From a virus (lineage: Duplodnaviria; Heunggongvirae; Uroviricota; Caudoviricetes), in IMG/VR virus record IMGVR_UViG_3300013902_000267: a stretch of 64,000 nt of DNA; one strand, given 5' to 3'. The notes under the pieces are model-generated. The model was not told the origin of the DNA and did no database searches. It saw only the letters and a program-made list of their open reading frames with translations. The translations under genes were made by a program, and so were the position numbers. The number at the start of each line of letters is the position of its first letter. Position 1 is the first letter of the stretch. Of the stretch, positions 20,643-28,901 are shown one piece after another.

Positions 20643-21344
20643 TTATTTTGATAAAGTACAATTATTAAAGAAAGTACAATATGATATATTAACTATATCA
20701 TTATATATAATTGTATCAACAAGTTCATCATATCTCAAAAGAGATGCTATGAAATTTTTATTATTCTGAAATTTAACACCTGGTTGCAATATCTTCGTTT
20801 CATAATGCATCCATATATTAACATTATTAAACTTATTTTTTAATATATCTATATACTTATGATAATCATCAAATGTATTAAATACACCTTTAAATAATGT
20901 ATCTATTATGTTAATATCATTGAAATCAACACTATTTAATAAATTTAATTCATCTGTATTACATGTTTCATATATTACATTATTATCTTTATCATATGAT
21001 TTTGTATTATATAAAATAAGTTGTATATCCTTTTCAGTTGTATTAATTATTTTTATATTTCTAACTATCAACGGACATGATATAATATATGATATAGGAC
21101 ATAGTATGCAGTTCTTTTTAATATTACTATCAAATATTAATGTAACACCACCATCTGAATATTCTATATCATCTATATTATGAACAATATTAATGTTTAT
21201 ATTATAATCATTCTTTTGTTTCTTTAATTTCAGTATATCATCTTTCCATCTTTTGAATTCTAATTCTCTTTGTTCATTTAGAACCTTTGAACCAACAGAT
21301 TCATTATTTACTATGTTATCAAATTCTTCGTCAAATAAATTCAT
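20643..21344 (-). CDS. Hypothetical protein
   Basis: 233-aa ORF. Confidence 0.4.
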   Translation of the reverse strand: MNLFDEEFDNIVNNESVGSKVLNEQRELEFKRWKDDILKLKKQKNDYNININIVHNIDDIEYSDGGVTLIFDSNIKKNCILCPISYIISCPLIVRNIKIINTTEKDIQLILYNTKSYDKDNNVIYETCNTDELNLLNSVDFNDINIIDTLFKGVFNTFDDYHKYIDILKNKFNNVNIWMHYETKILQPGVKFQNNKNFIASLLRYDELVDTIIYNDIVNISYCTFFNNCTLSK

Positions 21345-21435
21345 ACCTTTTTAAAATTAATCAATAATTATATAGAAAAATGATGAAAAAGTTATATATT
21401 TTCTTAAAAATATTGATATTTTAACAATAAAAAAT

Positions 21436-21461
21436 GATTCCAGTAGAAGTATACTGGAATC
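21436..21461 (-). terminator. Terminator hairpin (GATTCCAGTA / TACTGGAATC) downstream of nrdD
   Basis: 10-bp perfect stem 30 nt beyond the nrdD stop codon. Confidence 0.5.
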
Positions 21462-21489
21462 ATTAAAATATTAAAATAAAATAGTTAAA

Positions 21490-24400
21490 TTAAATATTTT
21501 CTTTTGGTAAATAAACACGTGTCTTTTGTTCTTTCTGACGTCCATCAGACCAATTCGAAATTTTAGTTAAATCACAATATACCCGAACTTTCATTCTATT
21601 TTAAAGGGGTTAGACTATACCACTAACTTCTTGAGTTACATCTTGGTAGTCGTTGAGGGCTTTTATTTGTTTCGTATCAAATAACTATCCCTGCTGATTA
21701 TCCATTGTTATATCATTAGAATTTTTACACTTTGGTATCTAATGCTTTAGGAACTTCCAGCATATTCGATGTTTGCTATATATGTCACCATATATAGGGG
21801 CATTTAATTAAAAATTTACCCGATTATTCTGTCATATAAACTTACATGAACTGATCCACACTTTGGACATACACTAAATGGTGTCTTTGAAATATATCCA
21901 CAATCTTCACATTTACAATTAGGAACATTAAATGTCCAATATTGACAACCATTCTCTGCCGCAAATTTCATAATGTGAACAATCTGTTTCTTAGACAAGT
22001 GCTCTGACAAATTGAGATGCGCTGCTGAACCACCATCCAAAAAATCTCCAATATAGTTCTTACCATGTAAGGTAATCTTATCAAAGATTGACAATGTTTT
22101 ATCATTTGGTTTGAATATGTAAGACGCATACAGGTTAGTGTCTGTTGGTACCCAATCAACTCTGTTACATGATTACATAATAATTTTAATATTATTGTTG
22201 AATGTAATCTGATTTATTAATATATTCATTTAGATTTATTAAACCTGCATGAATTTTCCTATGACAATTTGAACATACACATACACATTTTTTTATTTCT
22301 TCATATAGTTTTTCTTTACCTCTCCCTCGATGTTTACCTATTGTAAAATCTTTTTCATTTGGATCTATATGATGAAAATCTATACAACATGGTTCATATT
22401 CACTACATATTATACATGGATTCTTTAATGAATATAACCATTCTGTTTTTCTTTTTTGTGAACGCTTATTTTTGTTCATTATGTATTTCAGGATGTGCTT
22501 TTCTCATCTATTTCCTATATAATTTTCTACATTCTTTACATACTGCACGTCCTTTTTCAAACATTTCTATAGACAATTCTTTACCACATTTATTACATAT
22601 TTTTGTTGTCATATATATTAAATTATGTTTTATTATTTATCACCGGAACATGACAAAAATAACATAACCCAATTATATTAATAAACGCTTAATTATTTCT
22701 AATCAAGTCTCTATGTTACCATAGAGTTCGGACTATTGCATAGTTTTGTTTCACAACAAAACTCCTTTTTATTTAGTCTCTCAGGCTGCCCATAACATTG
22801 TTGTTATTGCTTGCCCCTCGTTATCCTTACTACCGGTACCTAAGGTAATAAAATGTAAGGAACTTCGAGTCAATTAAAAAAGGTTTTACATGGACATTGT
22901 TATTGTTGTCTATCCATCTTCAGAATCCCAATTATAATTCTTTATTGCCAAACTTTCAGCTGGTATACATTCAGTATTGAACGTTAACTTATGACCGTTA
23001 AATGTACCTGCAGCTTCTTGATTCTTTTGCTTTATATATCCAAATATTGTTTGACAAAGTTTTTCATAATGAGGATTTACATTACAAGTAATTCCTAAGA
23101 ATTCTGCCATTTGATTAAGACCATTCAAACCAATTGTTAAATATTGCTTATTCAAATTAATAAACCCTGCTTTATATACAGGTAATAATCCTGCGTCATA
23201 CATATCCCAAAGAAGTTCATTATATGCTGTATGATATTTATATACTCTATCAAGAATATTACCAAAATATTCGCACATATCATCATAATGCTCTTCTACA
23301 TTTTCTTTTGTTACTCCAGATTTCTTAACACTGTTAAACCAGTCTTGAGTTATGCGACTAAGATTCAGGGTTATCACACTTTTACTTCCTGTTTGACGTT
23401 TTCTCCATATATTTCTATATGGTCCGGGTCATATCTTATGTTTATTTAAATAATAAACATTGCACTATTTCGGCATTTAAAACGATTCGTTTCCTAAAAC
23501 GTTACTACGTATCAATAGTAGTCCTACTCCACCTGCTCATCACTTAGGGGATGACCTCCACACACATTAATAATTTTTATATGTTCTACCTATTAACATA
23601 TTCCTAAAATTATTCATTAAATAATTTTTATATTTACCGATTTTTAATTCTTCAATAGATTTGCCATTATTATATTGTTCTCTTAAATAAACAACTTCAT
23701 CTTTAGATAACAATGGTAACTTCTATTTACATTTATCAGTTCTAATAGGCATTTTTACATGCATATATGATTTTCCAAATAATATTTTATTAAATCCACT
23801 CCATGAATATAAATTACTATATTCTTTAAAAATATCATCTTCTTTTTCACCATTTACAAAATATCTTATTCTTATGTTTAATACTTCTTCATCAGATAAA
23901 TTCTTAGAATTTGCATGCATATTTCCTCTACGTGTTCTTCGATCTGATTTATAAAAATCATTTACTTTATCTGTATTATATTCTATACCAATTTCAGGTC
24001 TTGTATAATAATGCCAATATTTTGAAAATCCACTTTTTGACATTCTATCTTTATACATTTCATATACTTCTCCAAAAGTATATTTCATAGAATAACGTAT
24101 TTTTCTTAATTCTAATAATTCATTATCATTTAATATTGCTTTGGGATGCTCCTCCCCAACTTTTATTATAGTTGCAGAATGTCCACCCAATGTAGAATTA
24201 TATCCATTATTATAACTATCATATAATTTAATGTAATATATTTCTTTATTATCAGCTTCATCCTAATTAGGAACATTATCTTCTAATATTGAAAAATTTG
24301 ATTCATTAATATTATATTTTCTCATTGCTCTATATAATTTATAATCACTATGTTTCATATCATTTAAATGTTCTCTTACTCTTATATGATAATGATGTGT

Positions 24401-27400
24401 CTACCCAATATATACTTTTCCATTAGGAAATGATATTTTATAAATTGTAAATATTTTATTCATATATTATAAATGTAAAATTATAACATATTTATATTAA
24501 CTTGGCTCGGTATTACCATGCATATAGTTTCACAACTTATGTTTAGGCTTCACCGATGCATTAATATCGCTATATTAATACATTGCTTGATTAGCAATTA
24601 AGCACATAAAGGACCCAAGTTGATCCCTAAATTTCCATTTGTGAAGTTGAATTCCTTTGTTTGTATCTTATTCTTAAGTCTGCAGTTATGTGTTATATTT
24701 CCATTAGGCATTAAGAAATATGGTTCAAGATTCTTATCGCAGAGTTCTACACAATAATAATCTTTTGGTTCATCAAGATTTACAACTTCAACCTTTGTAA
24801 TTTTTCTTATAACAATGTCTTGATCTACATCTTTAAAATCATTTCTAAACATACCCATATATTGTCCATACTCAAAGATAAGTTGATCTCCTGTTTGAAG
24901 CAAATATGCTTGCTTATCTTTAATCATCTTATCATCATCAATAATAGGGAATATATGATCCGGTGTAACTCTCATTACATTTCGTGATTCATCCGGATTA
25001 AAATCGTCTGGAGCGAAATAAATTCTTACTTCTTGAACTGCTTCTGCTTTTACAAACTTAGCATTTACCCATTCACCTGTACATTTACCTGTTGTACCAT
25101 TAAAATTCATATGATATACATTAATAATTTCATCCTTATGCTTTTCATATGCATTTTTAAATGACTCAACCATATATGCGTTTGAACCTGCGTTTTCTTC
25201 CATATTACAAGGTTCTACATACATGAATGGAGTATCACCATCGAAACAACAACTTGATAATGAATCAACTGTATCTGACATATATGTAAAGAATGAATGA
25301 CCTCTTGCATATTCATCCGCCACAAAATCTGCAGATTCCTTATCAAGGAATTCTCCATCCTTATATACTAATGCGAAACTTTCCCATTTATATTCTATAT
25401 AGTTCGTTACACTATATACGTTCATAATAATGAACTGCTTTATGTTACCATAAAGATTAGACTATATCACAATCCTATAAATATAGGATTCTCCCCATTT
25501 CCACTCACTTGAGTGTACTTCCTTTCGGAATAGTCGTTGAACCTTATTATATAAATGAATATTTATGACCATAATATAATCTATTTGCATTTATCGATTT
25601 TACTAATCCTGATATACATGCAGTTCCTCCAATATTTTTAATAACTTCGGACATTGATGAATATATTATATTATTATCTAAACATTTTATTTTCTTTGGA
25701 AACGTTTTTCCCTTCATCGTATTACCAAATGTTTTAATAGAATATAATTCATTCTCTGATTGTGTGCACCATTCTAAATTATCTACTCTATTATCTGATC
25801 TATTACCATTTAAATGATTTACAAATGGTTTATTTTCAGGATTTGGTATAAATTCTTGAGCAACAAGTCTATGACATAAATATCTAGTTTTAATAGAATT
25901 TTGCATTAATGATATTCTTAAATAACCATCTAATGTATATTCTACTTTTAATGGTTTACCTTTATACGGACGTAATCCACCCCATCTACAAGGCACCATT
26001 CTATCTTTACTTCTGAAATTACCTAAATTACTAACTTCAAATGCGCCATCATATCCTGTTATACTTTTCCAAATTTCTTCCATAATATTCTCTTATATAA
26101 TCTTGGTTGCTGATTATCTAATAACTTCGCATATTTATTAGAGTTCCCAGCAGTTAAAGGAGTTTTTCAATAATAAATTACTTTATTATGCCGCAGATTG
26201 ATTTACGGGGAAGGTGATTATCGTACGAAGACGTTCCTTATTAAACCATATCATGAAGTCTTTCTGTAACCATGAAACACTTTCCCAACATGGTCTTGTT
26301 CCTTCTTCATCAGGAAATACAAATTCACCAAACATACCTTCAAAGAACGGTTTATCAAAATAAGAGAAATTTACAACATTTTTTCTTCTACATAAATCGT
26401 TACTTTATGTACGTTACTATTTGTAACTGCTCTATGATTTCCATAGACGATTAACGAATTTCACGTTAAAAGGGTTTGTTTAAACCGTTTAGACTATATC
26501 ACCAAATTTAATTTTCTTAAATTTGCACCTACACTTCCATAACACTTGTTATGTACTCTACTAACTCATTTAAAGTTTTCGATAGTCGTTGAACTTTTAT
26601 CCTTGTAGGATAATTAGCTGCGTATGATTACCCAATCTTTATCGTTTTTACAATCTGATAGCCGTTATACTATCTGCTACTATCTATGTTACCATGATAT
26701 GCTGTAGATAAAGCTCTAAGGGACTTCCCGCAATTCAAGGTGTTTATTAACGTCAGCACATGTAATTTCTCTTATAATTTAATTATTACCAAAATTATGT
26801 ATTTTATACATGTGACAATTTTTACAATATGTTATAAGATTATCTATGTTATTAAGTTCTTTATTTTTTATCGCTAAATTAAATAATTCATCAAAATTAT
26901 CAGTAGGATTTAATTCTGGATGTTCTGATAATAAATTATGAAATAATATTTTAAATGGAACTATATGATGAACTTGAAGATTTTCATGACAACCGCATAG
27001 CTAACAAGTATTATGATCTCTCTCTATAACTTCTGGAACTAATCGATTAAAATATGTTCTTATTTTATTACCTAATCTTGTAGTATCTGTTGTATATGGA
27101 ATATTAGTAATATTTAAACTATTTAATACTCTATTAATTACAGCTATTGTACAATTATATCTCCGTGCCAATTCTGTTTTTGATATTGACTATTCAATAT
27201 ATAAATTATATAATTTTTTATAATCATTAAAATCTTCTGGTATTTCTTTTTTATGATAATTCCACATAGATTCTGCAAAAGTACGTCTTTTAATCCCATT
27301 ATGTTTTAAATGACTTCTTATAGTAGTTGCTGAACAGTTAAATATTTTACCTATTTCTACTGTAGATTTACCATCATTATATAATTTTATTATTTCCTAA

Positions 27401-28901
27401 TCATTTGTATCATCATATTGTTCATAAACTTCATAATTAGTATTTTTTATATTATATTTTTTAAAATATCTATTAATAGTACCTTTATGACATTTATATA
27501 TTTCTGAAATTTCTTTCATTGTTAAACCATTATTAACATAATTTATTAAATCTTCTTTTTTAATTATTAATTTAGATTTTTCAATATTCCATTTTCTTAA
27601 ATATTCTTTAATATTTGCTAATGTTGTATTTCCTTCTTTAGCACACTATTTTCGTGTTAAACCTTTAATAACATAATTTTCATATAACCAATCTCTATCT
27701 TTTGTAAAATATCTATAATTAGACATAATTTCAGATATGTAAAATTACATACAGGATTATGTAATTTTTAATTTATTTTAGTTTATGCTGACTATAATCC
27801 TCTGGAGGCCGCAGGTTGGTTAATTGAATACACGACCTATTGAAAGAATTGTTGAATACATGAACCAATAGTTCTTGTACCATCACCTATCTTAATAGGA
27901 TTCGTAAAATCTTTTATTGAACCTTCAACATCATATTGTGATAATTCTTTCTCATATGCTTCAAGTTCTTCATCTGTTAACTCTCTTTCTGAATTATAAA
28001 CAAGTTCATCACGAAGTTTGTTTAATTCGTCTGAACCAAAATCATGTTTTCTCAATGTATCTACATCTTTACACCAATAATTAGATTCATTAAGAAGTTT
28101 CCTATATTTAGGCCCAATCTTATAAAATTCTTTACTATGCAAATGATAATCTTCACCAAACTCTTTTCTTGCAAAATAATCAAAATAAACAAGAAATTCC
28201 GATGTTGCAACTGCACCTGCAAATTGAGCAGCAACTGCAAATACAAGATTTACATACATACCACAATAAGAATCAAGATTTTGTGGATGACATGAAAGAC
28301 CTCCTATTTTTTCTAAACCATTATGAAGGAATGGATACATAGTTATACTTGTGCAATACGGACTTATGGCACCAGCGAAGCTAGACTCATCGTTCTTATA
28401 TATAATATGGTTTTTTAAATCTTTTTGATATTGTTTTGCTTTAAAATTTGGATATAGTTCTTTAAGTTTCCTTGTAATCATACCTCTGCTTACAAGAATA
28501 TTATCAGCTTTATGAATTTCAGCATTTAATACACCGATATTCTTAGAAGAAACATTAGAATTATCATCTACAGTACTATTTGCAGTATTAGATGCATTCT
28601 TATATCTTTCAATAAATGCTTCCTTATTAGCAACCCATTCTCTAATTTCCTTTTTCTTGTTACGATAAAGAATAAATTCTTTCGCAACTTTAGGATAATC
28701 ATGAGAATACAAACTTGTTTCAATTTGATCCTGTATTTCCTCTACAGGAATACCATCATATGGTGTTATTGAGTTTGCAATATTAGCTATAGTATCTTTA
28801 GTATACTTAGTTTTCGTAGACTTAAACGCCTCACGAATCGCTCGTTTAACTGTCTAAACACTATAGTTCTCAAAACTACCATCACGTTTCGTTACCTTCA
28901 T
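21490..28901 (-). CDS. nrdD: Anaerobic ribonucleoside-triphosphate reductase NrdD, split into about 6 exons by 5 intron-like insertions, with a mini-intein in exon 3. Approximate exons: 28901-27840, 26390-26205, 25425-24601 (includes the intein), 23415-22906, 22165-21819, 21578-21490
   Basis: Exon 1: ATP-cone-like N-terminus 'MKVTKRDGSFENYSV-Q-TVKRAI' and 'SPYCTSITMYPFL'. Exon 2: '...ERLRTIITFPV'. Exon 5: Zn-ribbon 'CEDCGY...CPKCGS' ending '...DRIIG'. Exon 6: 'YCDLTKISNWSDGRQKEQKTRVYLPKENI' completes the RxxGY glycyl-radical motif and resembles E. coli 'WNDGKQ..KDRV'. Intervening segments carry HE ORFs and RNA-like conserved blocks. Confidence 0.7.
21579..21818 (-). mobile_element. Intron 5 of nrdD: small (about 240 nt) ORF-less group I-like intron just after the glycyl-radical Gly codon
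   Basis: Exon 5 stops at TAA immediately after '...DRIIG'. The missing C-terminus resumes about 240 nt downstream in another frame. The intervening sequence has GC-richer structured blocks. I could not find a canonical ending at the 3' splice site. Confidence 0.5.
22166..22905 (-). mobile_element. Intron 4 of nrdD (group I-like), carrying a small HNH endonuclease ORF
   Basis: NrdD reading frames break on both sides. The internal HNH ORF is 22192..22479. Confidence 0.5.
22192..22479 (-). CDS. HNH homing endonuclease (small, 95 aa)
   Basis: 'CIICSEYEPCCIDFHHIDP...CSNCHRKIH' HNH zinc-finger motif. Confidence 0.65.
   Translation of the reverse strand: MNKNKRSQKRKTEWLYSLKNPCIICSEYEPCCIDFHHIDPNEKDFTIGKHRGRGKEKLYEEIKKCVCVCSNCHRKIHAGLINLNEYINKSDYIQQ
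23416..24600 (-). mobile_element. Intron 3 of nrdD (group I-like), carrying a GIY-YIG homing endonuclease
   Basis: Exon 3 ends '...GINLGPLCA' at TAA 24598. Exon 4 resumes after an in-frame TGA near 23415. Confidence 0.5.
23567..24463 (-). CDS. GIY-YIG homing endonuclease; TAG-recoded (3 TAG)
   Basis: 'IYKISFPNGKVYIG-Q-T' GIY-YIG motif with TAG at the conserved Gln. Continuous 299-codon frame from ATG (rc of 24461-24463) to TAA. Contains the track fragment 23723..24190. Confidence 0.7.
24685..25083 (-). other. Mini-intein (about 133 aa, no endonuclease domain) inside nrdD exon 3
   Basis: Begins 'CTGEWVN...'. Block B 'RVTPDHIF' (T-x-x-H). C-terminal 'YYCVELCDKNLEPYFLMPNGNITHN' followed by the extein Cys. 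Confidence 0.6.
25426..26204 (-). mobile_element. Intron 2 of nrdD (group I-like), carrying an HNH endonuclease
   Basis: Shares conserved blocks (TATGTTACCAT, GACTATA, TAGTCGTTGAAC) with the other nrdD introns. Confidence 0.5.
25547..26083 (-). CDS. HNH homing endonuclease (HNH_3 type, 178 aa)
   Basis: 'FEVSNLGNFRS' NUMOD-like N-terminus. 'HRLVAQEFIPNPENKPFVNHLNGNRSDNRVDNLEW' HNH_3 signature. Confidence 0.7.
   Translation of the reverse strand: MEEIWKSITGYDGAFEVSNLGNFRSKDRMVPCRWGGLRPYKGKPLKVEYTLDGYLRISLMQNSIKTRYLCHRLVAQEFIPNPENKPFVNHLNGNRSDNRVDNLEWCTQSENELYSIKTFGNTMKGKTFPKKIKCLDNNIIYSSMSEVIKNIGGTACISGLVKSINANRLYYGHKYSFI
26391..27839 (-). mobile_element. Intron 1 of nrdD (group I-like), carrying an HNH endonuclease with HTH repeats
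   Basis: Structured GC-richer 5' part (CTGGAGGCCGCAGGTTGG). 3' part has the conserved GTTTAGACTATATCACC and TAGTCGTTGAAC blocks. Confidence 0.5.
26779..27726 (-). CDS. HNH homing endonuclease with repeated HTH (NUMOD1-like) modules; TAG-recoded (4 TAG)
   Basis: C-terminal 'CQLCGCHENLQVHHIVP...CKNCH' HNH motif. Three '...KEISEIYKCHKGTINRY...' HTH-like repeats. 316-codon frame, invisible to the ORF track. Confidence 0.6.

What the first reader, a model, noticed from the sequence alone, without database searches (positions are those of the whole stretch)
24685..25083. Mini-intein in NrdD
About 133 residues bounded by Cys1 (CTGEWVN...) and ...NGNITHN followed by Cys. Block B TxxH (RVTPDHIF) and the C-terminal F/G blocks (YYCVELCDKNLEPYFLMPNGNITHN) are present. 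There is no LAGLIDADG or HNH domain. A protein-level parasite and RNA-level parasites coexist in the same gene.
Basis: partly seen in the sequence, partly recalled or inferred. Interest (0 to 1): 0.6.

Follow-up and report, generated by a model that had tools for sequence, protein, structure and literature searches.

The report
Mini-intein splitting Lak megaphage NrdD

Summary
The window is Prevotella phage Lak-B. On the minus strand, nrdD is split into six exons by five intervening sequences, and exon 3 carries an in-frame intein. The N-terminal end is wrong. The element is 188 aa (window 24685–25248), CFDGDTPF…NGNITHN, inserted in SLSSC|CRLKNK.

Removing 188 aa gives one unbroken alignment to T. 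maritima NrdD. A Lak-like allele with no intein lacks exactly these 564 nt. A crAss-like phage NrdD is 73% identical straight across the junction. AlphaFold2 models all 188 aa as one domain (pLDDT 85.5), and the top 49 Foldseek PDB hits are all inteins or Hint domains. C1, TxxH and HN/C+1 are invariant, and dN/dS is 0.15. There is no endonuclease domain.

Clostridium phage c-st and a faecal phage carry LAGLIDADG-containing inteins at the same site. The +1 Cys corresponds to the thiyl-radical cysteine of T4 NrdD.

This is a new member of a known kind. Splicing activity was not tested.

The parts
24685..25248 (-). The intein: 188 codons, CFDGDTPF…PYFLMPNGNITHN. These are residues 476-663 of the 985-aa NrdD precursor, or aa 60-247 of ORF 24598..25425.
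   Evidence: Deleting it restores a continuous NrdD alignment. An intein-free Lak-like allele lacks exactly these 564 nt. AF2 models a single domain with pLDDT 85.5, and Foldseek top hits are all inteins. Homologues cover 100% of the 188 aa.
25246..25248 (-). Cys1 of the intein (N-terminal nucleophile, block A CFDGDT). The preceding codon, 25249-25251, is the -1 Cys of the NrdD SSCC motif.
   Evidence: Invariant in 8 of 8 aligned variants. All free-standing and allelic homologues start their alignment here.
25081..25083 (-). It is an internal, invariant, non-junction cysteine.
   Evidence: It lies at the start of the long strand E55-78 of the AF2 model.
24955..24966 (-). Block B T-x-x-H (Thr95…His98 of the intein; TPDH).
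   Evidence: Invariant in all variants. The Pfam Intein_splicing match starts just upstream.
24751..24753 (-). Cys166 of the intein, in YYCVEL. By motif register this is block F position 4, which is usually Asp in standard inteins.
   Evidence: Invariant in Lak variants and conserved in the c-st, P0024 and P0029 inteins at the same site. The positional assignment is inferred from spacing: it is 22 residues before the terminal Asn, compared with 21 in the MP-Be DnaB intein (PMC2807308).
24682..24690 (-). His187-Asn188 of the intein, plus the +1 Cys of the C-extein (CRLKNK).
   Evidence: Invariant. The +1 Cys aligns with the second Cys of SCCR (residues 328-331) in TmNrdD, which aligns to MGCR (288-291) in T4 NrdD (PMC4493059).
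24623..25384 (-). nrdD exon 3. The N-extein part is 25249..25384 (ESFALVYKDG…SLSSC). The C-extein part is 24623..24684 (CRLKNKIQTKEFNFTNGNLGI).
   Evidence: Borders come from the intron-less alleles of Lak-A1 and Lak-C1 and from an in-frame assembly. Borders are good to ±1-2 nt.
27785..28901 (-). nrdD exon 1 (ATP-cone-like N-terminus through …GLQSA). It contains three in-frame TAG codons read as Gln.
26205..26376 (-). nrdD exon 2.
22912..23396 (-). nrdD exon 4.
21818..22156 (-). nrdD exon 5. It ends …SLYDRIIG, inside the glycyl-radical motif.
21490..21572 (-). nrdD exon 6 (YLTKISNWSDGRQKEQKTRVYLPKENI, then a TAA stop).
26377..27784 (-). Intervening sequence 1 (1408 nt). It holds a 315-aa HTH+HNH endonuclease ORF (27726..26779) with 4 in-frame TAG codons.
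   Evidence: Absent from Lak-A1. ORF and Pfam hits. The upstream exon ends in U and the intron ends in G.
25385..26204 (-). Intervening sequence 2 (820 nt). It holds a NUMOD4+HNH_3 endonuclease ORF (26083..25547).
   Evidence: Absent from Lak-A1 and Lak-C1. Pfam hits. About 125 nt at its 3' end is 81-85% identical to DNA in Herelleviridae and other phages.
23397..24622 (-). Intervening sequence 3 (1226 nt). It holds a 298-aa GIY-YIG-like ORF (24463..23567) with 3 in-frame TAG codons.
   Evidence: Absent from Lak-C1. The Pfam GIY-YIG score is 22.2 bits against a cut-off of 22.6.
22157..22911 (-). Intervening sequence 4 (755 nt). It holds a 95-aa Cys/His-rich, HNH-like ORF (22479..22192).
   Evidence: Absent from Lak-A1 and Lak-C1. 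The ORF has no Pfam hit.
21573..21817 (-). Intervening sequence 5 (245 nt, no ORF). It splits the RIIG|Y glycyl-radical motif.
   Evidence: Absent from Lak-A1 and Lak-C1. RNA fold z-score is -2.1. No Rfam hit.

Best explanation
Window 24685..25248 (minus strand) encodes a 188-residue class-1-type mini-intein. It lies in the class III ribonucleotide reductase NrdD of Prevotella phage Lak-B, between the two cysteines of the conserved SSC|CRL finger-loop motif.

Shown here: after the five intervening sequences are removed, the mRNA encodes a 985-aa precursor with three TAG codons read as Gln.

Inferred from established intein chemistry, not tested here: the Hint domain then excises itself in four steps. 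(1) Cys1 makes an N-S acyl shift, helped by block B Thr95/His98. (2) The +1 Cys takes over the N-extein by trans-thioesterification. (3) Asn188 cyclises, helped by His187, and releases the intein. (4) An S-N shift restores the peptide bond …SLSSC-CRLKNK…. The product is a 797-aa NrdD.

The +1 nucleophile corresponds by alignment to the thiyl-radical cysteine of T4 NrdD, so the enzyme should be inactive until splicing happens. The intein carries no homing endonuclease. It is now inherited vertically within Lak phages and is kept functional by selection on the host enzyme. It most likely derives from the LAGLIDADG-bearing inteins found at the same nrdD site in other phages.
For: Source: 100% identity to Lak-B genomes.

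Boundaries:
- The NCBIfam NrdD profile match stops at SLSSCC.
- Deleting 188 aa gives one 108-bit alignment to T. maritima NrdD running sccrlknkiqt / SCCRLTSSTQT. Deleting 133 aa gives two broken pieces.
- crAss-like phage cr116_1 NrdD is 72.7% identical over 190 spliced residues in one piece, reading …SLSSCCRLKNKIQTKEFNFTNGN….
- The intein-free Lak-like contig L007 aligns ungapped to the window once 25248..24685 is removed. The difference is exactly 564 nt.
- The reconstructed 797-aa product scores 667.5 bits on TIGR02827 (cut-off 568.3), with one stretch running across the junction.

Fold:
- AF2 gives pLDDT 85.5 and pTM 0.80 for all 188 aa as one domain. The first 60 residues score 76-96.
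- The top 49 Foldseek PDB hits are all inteins or Hint domains. The best is the P. horikoshii RadA mini-intein, E 7.8e-10, TM 0.69/0.75.

Catalytic residues: C1, T95, H98, H187 and N188 are invariant in 8 variants that are about 50% identical overall.

Selection: dN/dS is 0.15 for the intein and 0.18 for its first 55 aa, Lak-B against Lak-A.

No endonuclease: only Intein_splicing hits appear. A short low-confidence linker (residues ~131-140, pLDDT 64) sits where c-st carries its LAGLIDADG domain.

Same-site relatives: c-st CST076 and MT835492 have ASC|C…THN|CRL inteins with LAGLIDADG motifs. hhalign aligns the C-terminal 26 aa at 95% probability and 54% identity.

Essential cysteines: TmNrdD C329A and C330A are both inactive, and SCCR aligns to T4 MGCR (PMC4493059).
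Against: - Splicing itself was not and cannot be tested with these tools.
- The Pfam Intein_splicing score (26.5-26.7 bits, E 6e-6) is below the gathering cut-off of 35.8 and covers only the C-terminal 98 residues.
- No solved intein is detectable by sequence alone.
- Block F position 4 appears to be Cys rather than the usual Asp, so the details of step coordination may differ from textbook class 1 inteins.
- Which of the two adjacent Cys codons belongs to the intein cannot be decided from sequence. It is assigned by convention.
- Descent from a LAGLIDADG-bearing ancestor is inferred only from the shared site and the similarity of the C-terminal motif.
Confidence: 0.9

Rival explanations
1. 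One reading: a 133-residue mini-intein that starts at Cys115 of the ORF (CTGEWVN, 25083). On this reading the preceding 55 residues (CFDGDTPF…GTTGK) are native NrdD sequence.
For: Cys115 is invariant in all variants. 133 aa is a typical mini-intein size. The Pfam hit covers only residues 150-247.
Against: - Deleting 115-247 leaves the NrdD alignment broken at SSCC|F: two domains, 96 bits instead of 108.
- Intein-free relatives have no counterpart of the 55 residues.
- The 133-aa unit would lack block A and the first strands of the Hint fold, which AF2 models confidently as part of one domain.
- Every homologue, including the free-standing ones, begins at CF[DE]xxT.
Confidence: 0.02
2. A decayed, non-splicing intein remnant. 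On this reading nrdD in Lak-B is a pseudogene, or the insert is tolerated as a permanent domain.
For: There is no homing endonuclease. The Pfam score is sub-threshold. The gene is crowded with six insertions.
Against: - All splice-junction residues are invariant across variants that are only ~50% identical.
- dN/dS is 0.15 for the intein and 0.01-0.08 for the flanking exteins.
- The insert separates two cysteines that are each essential in TmNrdD, so retaining it should kill the enzyme.
- The spliced product passes the equivalog cut-off for NrdD.
- The intein is kept in all 15 Lak GenBank genomes and in 6 IMG/VR contigs.
Confidence: 0.04
3. The intein splices, but by a variant or conditional route. 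Either the invariant block F Cys166 acts as a class-3-like branch nucleophile, or the cluster of cysteines (-1, 1, 56, 166, +1) forms disulfides that block splicing under oxidising conditions. The second option would tie maturation of an oxygen-sensitive enzyme to anoxia.
For: - Cys at the inferred F:4 position and Thr at G:5 are two of the three WCT residues of class 3 inteins, while Asp is usual in standard inteins (PMC2807308).
- Cys56 and Cys166 are invariant.
- There is a precedent: a block F catalytic Cys forms a disulfide with a non-catalytic Cys and halts splicing under H2O2 in the M. smegmatis DnaBi1 intein (PMC6195587).
Against: - Cys1 and a canonical TxxH block B are present, and the third WCT residue (Trp at B:12) is Phe. 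The defining class 3 features are therefore not met.
- There are no experimental data.
Confidence: 0.1

Closest known systems
Clostridium phage c-st NrdD (RNR) intein, in CST076. Cited as a known phage RNR intein in PMC3653736 and PMC7824862.
   Same: Identical insertion site between the two Cys of the S-C-C-R finger-loop motif (ASC|C…THN|CRL). It shares Cys1, a TxxH block B, the YxYC block F strand, and an EPYF(T/L)(L/M)PNG(I/N)ITHN|C end. hhalign gives 95% probability and 54% identity over 26 aa.
   Different: The c-st intein is about 330 aa and has a LAGLIDADG homing-endonuclease domain between the splicing halves. The Lak intein has only a ~15-residue linker there. Overall sequence similarity is too low for BLAST. 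The host NrdD belongs to a different subclade.
Same-site NrdD inteins in uncultured phages: MT835492 (L006, with LAGLIDADG), P0031 (with LAGLIDADG), and P0024 and P0029 (mini-inteins).
   Same: Same SSC|C / AMC|C site and a homologous C-terminal splicing region. The Lak profile HMM finds them at E 1.6e-9 to 9e-6.
   Different: P0024 is shorter (164 aa) because it lacks part of the N-terminal helix and hairpin region. They are under 30% identical to the Lak intein.
Structurally characterised mini-inteins, for example P. horikoshii RadA (4E2T), the TFIIB mini-inteins (5O9I) and NpuDnaB (4O1R).
   Same: The same Hint horseshoe fold (TM 0.56-0.75), Cys1/TxxH/HN architecture, and no endonuclease.
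   Different: Only 12-17% sequence identity. They sit in different host proteins. The Lak intein has a longer N-terminal lobe: 94 residues from Cys1 to block B Thr.
Intron-plus-intein coincidence in phage RNR genes: SPbeta nrdE, Brochothrix phage A9 nrdE, Lactococcus phage 949 nrdD, Jug phage nrdD.
   Same: Self-splicing RNA and protein elements share one ribonucleotide reductase gene (PMC3653736; PMC12880540).
   Different: Here five intervening sequences and one intein sit in one nrdD. The introns vary between Lak clades, while the intein is kept in all sequenced Lak-A, Lak-B and Lak-C genomes.

Membership tests
Intein (Hint superfamily, class 1 / standard) | In-frame insertion that is precisely absent from orthologous host proteins | tested here: met
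   T. maritima NrdD, crAss-like cr116_1 NrdD and the Lak-like contig L007 are all continuous across SSC|CRL. The difference is exactly 564 nt.
Intein (Hint superfamily, class 1 / standard) | Hint (Hedgehog/intein) fold | tested here: met
   AF2 pLDDT 85.5 and pTM 0.80. The top 49 Foldseek PDB hits are all inteins, BIL domains or Hedgehog Hint domains. The best E-value is 7.8e-10.
Intein (Hint superfamily, class 1 / standard) | N-terminal Cys/Ser nucleophile and block B TxxH | tested here: met
   Cys1, Thr95 and His98 are invariant in 8 variants.
Intein (Hint superfamily, class 1 / standard) | C-terminal His-Asn followed by Cys/Ser/Thr at +1 | tested here: met
   …ITHN|C is invariant.
Intein (Hint superfamily, class 1 / standard) | Match to a curated intein HMM above its threshold (Pfam PF14890 Intein_splicing) | tested here: inconclusive
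   E 5.5e-6 to 6.2e-6 but 26.5-26.7 bits, below the gathering score of 35.8. Only profile positions 60-155 match.
Intein (Hint superfamily, class 1 / standard) | Block F position 4 Asp (usual in standard inteins) | tested here: not met
   The residue in that register is Cys166 (YYCVEL), which is invariant. The register is inferred from motif spacing. This is a usual feature of the class, not a defining one.
Intein (Hint superfamily, class 1 / standard) | Autocatalytic protein splicing | not testable with these tools
   Needs expression of a precursor and detection of the ligated exteins.
Mini-intein (no homing endonuclease) | No LAGLIDADG, HNH or other endonuclease domain between the splicing halves | tested here: met
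   188 aa in a single domain. Pfam finds only Intein_splicing. There is a ~15-residue linker where c-st has ~170 aa containing LAGLIDADG motifs.
NrdD finger-loop (SCC|CR site) intein allele, as in phage c-st | Same insertion point in NrdD | tested here: met
   c-st has ALASC|CFDGQ…ITHN|CRLTSS. Lak has SLSSC|CFDGD…ITHN|CRLKNK.
NrdD finger-loop (SCC|CR site) intein allele, as in phage c-st | Detectable homology of the splicing domain | tested here: inconclusive
   The C-terminal 26 aa align at 95% probability, E 4e-8. In the N-terminal half only block-level motifs match. tblastn with the Lak intein finds no non-Lak phage.
Class 3 intein | Lacks an N-terminal Cys/Ser/Thr nucleophile | tested here: not met
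   Cys1 is present and invariant.
Class 3 intein | WCT triplet (Trp B:12, Cys F:4, Thr G:5) | tested here: not met
   B:12 is Phe (TPDHIF). Cys at the inferred F:4 position and Thr at G:5 are present, so two of three (definition from PMC2807308).
Group I introns (the neighbouring intervening sequences) | Match to the Rfam group I intron covariance model | tested here: not met
   No family matched at E<=10 across 21300-28000. Large ORF insertions and 24-32% GC may hide the cores.
Group I introns (the neighbouring intervening sequences) | Precise absence from sister alleles, upstream exon ending in U, intron ending in G, and internal homing-endonuclease ORFs | tested here: met
   Lak-A1 lacks introns 1, 2, 4 and 5. 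Lak-C1 lacks 2 to 5. The U…G rule holds for 5 of 5 once the borders are fixed by reading frame. HNH, NUMOD4-HNH_3 and GIY-YIG ORFs are present.

The most novel reading that the evidence does not exclude
The invariant cysteines of this intein are -1, 1, 56, 166 (inferred block F position 4) and +1. They may make it a redox- or oxygen-gated splicing switch, or give it a class-3-like block F branch step. Either way, the oxygen-sensitive glycyl-radical enzyme NrdD would mature only in a reducing, anoxic cell. This would be a natural example of an intein regulating the enzyme whose catalytic cysteine it uses as its nucleophile.
Probability: 0.1. Interest if true: 0.6.

Novelty: new member of a known kind. 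Interest (0 to 1): 0.3.

Why it matters
- The public Lak genome records are unannotated. The Lak papers held in the searched library never use the word "intein".
- Anyone annotating nrdD in these 540-550 kb gut phages will see fragments unless they remove five intervening sequences, remove one 188-aa intein, and read TAG as Gln. The exact borders given here allow a correct 797-aa NrdD to be called.
- The locus is a compact natural comparison of selfish elements. The endonuclease-carrying intervening sequences come and go between Lak-A, Lak-B and Lak-C. The endonuclease-free intein is retained in all of them and is under purifying selection.
- The insertion point lies between two individually essential cysteines, and the +1 nucleophile is the counterpart of the radical cysteine. 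This is a clean example of inteins targeting catalytic centres.
- None of this changes what is known about inteins.

Tried and rejected
Tested directly and rejected.
- **Rfam on the gene region.** Searches at E<=0.01 and E<=10 gave no group I intron hit and only noise, for example sau-31 at E 3.8 inside the intein. The intron class therefore rests on indirect evidence.
- **Sequence search of solved structures with the intein profile.** Nothing significant: sortase and aldolase hits at E>0.05. Only fold comparison links it to solved inteins.
- **tblastn of the intein against 50,697 phage records.** Found only the 15 Lak genomes, so there is no close relative in cultured phages.
- **First exon assembly.** It was out of frame by one base at the exon 2/3 junction. 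Placing the exon 3 start at 25384 fixed it.
- **Native NrdD insertion or decayed remnant.** Considered and rejected on fold, invariant junction residues and dN/dS.
- **Class 3 intein.** Considered and rejected on Cys1 and the missing Trp.
- **Cysteine-cysteine distances.** Could not be measured, because model coordinates are not exposed.
Full report
**Source and context.** The window is 27% GC. It is 100% identical to Prevotella phage Lak-B genomes (MK250021 and others) over the tested 1.2 kb. Lak-A and Lak-C match at 83-86%. These GenBank records carry no annotation. The feature lies on the minus strand, inside the class III ribonucleotide reductase gene nrdD. ORF fragments across 21.5-28.9 kb match successive parts of the NCBIfam NrdD model TIGR02827.

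**Check of the observation.** The TxxH motif and the C-terminal …NGNITHN|C are present. However, the enclosing ORF (24598..25425) reads …TYMSDTVDSLSSC-CFDGDTPFMYV…NGNITHN-CRLKNK…. The NrdD profile match ends exactly at SLSSCC.

**Boundary tests.**
- With the 188 residues C60-N247 removed, the exon 2-4 protein aligns to T. maritima NrdD (4COI) as one continuous 108-bit domain. It runs straight through the junction (…sdtvdslssccrlknkiqt.kefnf… against …SDSIDAVASCCRLTSSTQTLKKFSL…).
- The closest intein-free NrdD among GenBank phages is from crAss-like phage cr116_1. It is 72.7% identical over the 190-aa spliced query in a single piece, reading …TYISDTVDSLSSCCRLKNKIQTKEFNFTNGNIGIQTGSKSVITLNL….
- A metagenomic contig (L007, Logan SRR30201816) is clearly Lak-like. 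It is 27% GC, has in-frame TAG codons, and carries the same first intervening sequence with its HNH gene at 77% nucleotide identity. It carries an empty site. Removing 25248..24685 from the window gives an ungapped match to it (73 of 87 nt), and the length difference is exactly 564 nt, or 188 codons.

So the element occupies 24685..25248. The two Cys codons flanking the N-terminal junction are equivalent by sequence. Assigning the second one to the intein follows convention.

**Is it an intein?**
- Pfam Intein_splicing matches residues 91-188 of the element at E 5.5e-6. At 26.7 bits it is below the gathering score of 35.8.
- No solved intein is found by sequence.
- AlphaFold2, run on an 8-sequence alignment, models all 188 residues as one domain. 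Mean pLDDT is 85.5, pTM is 0.80, and the first 60 residues score 76-96.
- The top 49 Foldseek PDB hits are all inteins, bacterial intein-like domains or Hedgehog Hint domains. The best is the P. horikoshii RadA mini-intein, at E 7.8e-10 and TM 0.69/0.75.
- Among eight variants only about 50% identical to each other, Cys1, Thr95/His98 (block B), His187 and Asn188 are invariant. The +1 Cys follows …THN in all of them. It lies at the start of a long beta strand of the model.
- dN/dS between Lak-B and Lak-A is 0.15 for the intein and 0.18 for its first 55 residues. For the flanking exteins it is 0.01-0.08.
- There is no endonuclease domain. A low-confidence ~15-residue linker sits where related inteins carry one.

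**Reconstruction of the gene.**
- Lak-A1 has exons 1-3 contiguous, and Lak-C1 has exons 2-6 contiguous. This fixes five intervening sequences in the window: 27784-26377, 26204-25385, 24622-23397, 22911-22157 and 21817-21573.
- With these borders every upstream exon ends in U and every intervening sequence ends in G.
- Four of the five contain endonuclease ORFs: HTH+HNH, NUMOD4+HNH_3, GIY-YIG-like, and a small Cys/His ORF. Two of these ORFs are open only if TAG is read as Gln.
- Exon 1 also has three in-frame TAG codons. At two of them Lak-A1 has ordinary Gln codons. At the third it has TAG too.
- Joining the six exons gives a 985-aa precursor with the intein at residues 476-663. Removing the intein gives a 797-aa protein. 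It scores 667.5 bits on TIGR02827 (cut-off 568.3), with one stretch covering profile positions 170-596.
- Rfam found no group I intron model anywhere in the region, even at E<=10. The intron class is therefore inferred, not shown.

[quoted passage not shown] The C329A and C330A mutants are each inactive (PMC4493059). The Lak intein is inserted between the counterparts of these two cysteines, and its +1 nucleophile is the counterpart of C330. Uninterrupted NrdD therefore requires excision. This is an inference from the alignment and the cited mutagenesis.

**Most likely mechanism.** The standard class 1 pathway is expected. This follows from established intein chemistry and from the presence of every residue it needs. 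It was not tested.
1. N-S acyl shift at Cys1.
2. Trans-thioesterification to Cys+1.
3. Asn188 cyclisation.
4. S-N shift, which restores the peptide bond.

One departure was seen. The residue in the register of block F position 4 is an invariant Cys (YYCVEL), where standard inteins usually have Asp. Cys at that position, with Thr at G:5, is typical of class 3 inteins (PMC2807308). Because Cys1 and TxxH are present and the class 3 Trp is replaced by Phe, I do not file this element as class 3.

The cysteine-rich junction (-1, 1, +1) plus invariant Cys56 and Cys166 leaves room for redox control. There is a precedent in the M. smegmatis DnaBi1 intein (PMC6195587). This is speculation, at about 10% probability.

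**Relatives and distribution.**
- The word-index search found 13 proteins. A full HMM scan of 1.84 billion representatives found 23.
- The intein is present in all 15 Lak genomes in the phage collection and in no other phage record. It is on 6 IMG/VR contigs, five of them 71-554 kb long.
- Clostridium phage c-st CST076 (979 aa) and faecal phage MT835492 carry larger inteins with LAGLIDADG motifs at exactly the same site. Their C-terminal end is similar: EPYFTLPNGIITHN|C in c-st against EPYFLMPNGNITHN|C in Lak. hhalign gives 95% probability.
- Other metagenomic NrdDs carry same-site mini-inteins (P0024, P0029) or a LAGLIDADG-bearing one (P0031).
- The Lak element is thus a divergent, endonuclease-free member of an existing same-site NrdD intein group. 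Loss of the endonuclease is the simplest history, but it is not proven.

**Comparison with the literature.** Inteins in phage RNR genes are established. So is their coexistence with group I introns: SPbeta nrdE, Brochothrix A9 nrdE, c-st nrdD and Lactococcus 949 nrdD (PMC3653736), c-st again (PMC7824862), and Jug phage nrdD (PMC12880540). The Lak-specific papers in the library have no occurrence of "intein".

**Verdict.** The finding is real and its main interpretation stands. Its N-terminal coordinate must move from 25083 to 25248, and its size from 133 to 188 residues. It is a new, unannotated member of a known kind and is of modest interest.

Noticed in passing
window 28854-28856, 27837-27839 and 27792-27794 (nrdD exon 1); ORFs 27726..26779 and 24463..23567: In-frame TAG codons are present: three in nrdD exon 1, four in the HNH endonuclease ORF of intervening sequence 1, and three in the GIY-YIG-like ORF of intervening sequence 3. 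At two of the exon 1 positions Lak-A1 has ordinary Gln codons. This fits TAG-to-Gln recoding in this phage. The intein itself contains no TAG.
   Followed up: partly
window 21573-27784 (five intervening sequences in nrdD): The intervening sequences differ between Lak clades. Lak-A1 has only number 3, Lak-C1 has only number 1, and Lak-B (this window) has all five. The intein is in all three clades. No Rfam group I model matches any of the five, even though they follow the U…G end rule and carry endonuclease ORFs.
   Followed up: partly
window 25428-25555 (3' part of intervening sequence 2): About 125 nt is 81-85% identical to DNA in Staphylococcus, Bacillus and Enterococcus phages (listed rows); unlisted records in the same search are from Vibrio, Alteromonas and Rhizobium phages. 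In Staphylococcus phage CF5 the matching stretch lies next to a gene annotated as 'intron encoded nuclease'. It looks like a conserved intron core shared by very distant phages.
   Followed up: partly
L009 4001-4633 (ENA scaffold, 150 kb, 40% GC); proteins P0018, P0020, P0021, P0026, P0027, P0030: Free-standing Hint-domain proteins of about 200-220 aa are full-length homologues of the Lak intein. They keep the CF[DE]xxTP start and the TPNH block B, but end …ISHD|SSV.Y with almost no flanking protein. P0018 and P0020 lie directly upstream of nrdD genes. The nrdD next to P0018 was read in full and is intact and intein-free (T4-like STMGCRT loop). They do not look like ordinary inteins, and their role is unexplained.
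   Followed up: partly
protein P0089 (metagenomic NrdD fragment): A second intein insertion site exists in NrdD relatives: …ILVHN|CVSISMYPF…. This is in front of the cysteine of the AISPYC motif, the counterpart of T4 Cys79 / TmNrdD Cys125. Another catalytic cysteine is thus used as the +1 residue.
   Followed up: no
L007 2411-2501 versus window 24490-24577: In the intein-free Lak-like contig, a sequence 83% identical to the 5' part of the window's intervening sequence 3 sits at a different nrdD position, after …GDFLDG in exon 5. A GIY-YIG gene follows it. This suggests the same element has moved to a new site.
   Followed up: no
window about 27880-28150 (nrdD exon 1, precursor residues ~250-340): A stretch of about 90 residues (…HLHSKEFYKIGPKYRK…ELTDEELEAYEKELSQYDVEGS…) has no counterpart in the NrdD profile TIGR02827, whose match splits around it. 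It is mostly absent from the crAss-like cr116_1 NrdD. It may be a Lak-specific surface insertion of unknown role.
   Followed up: no
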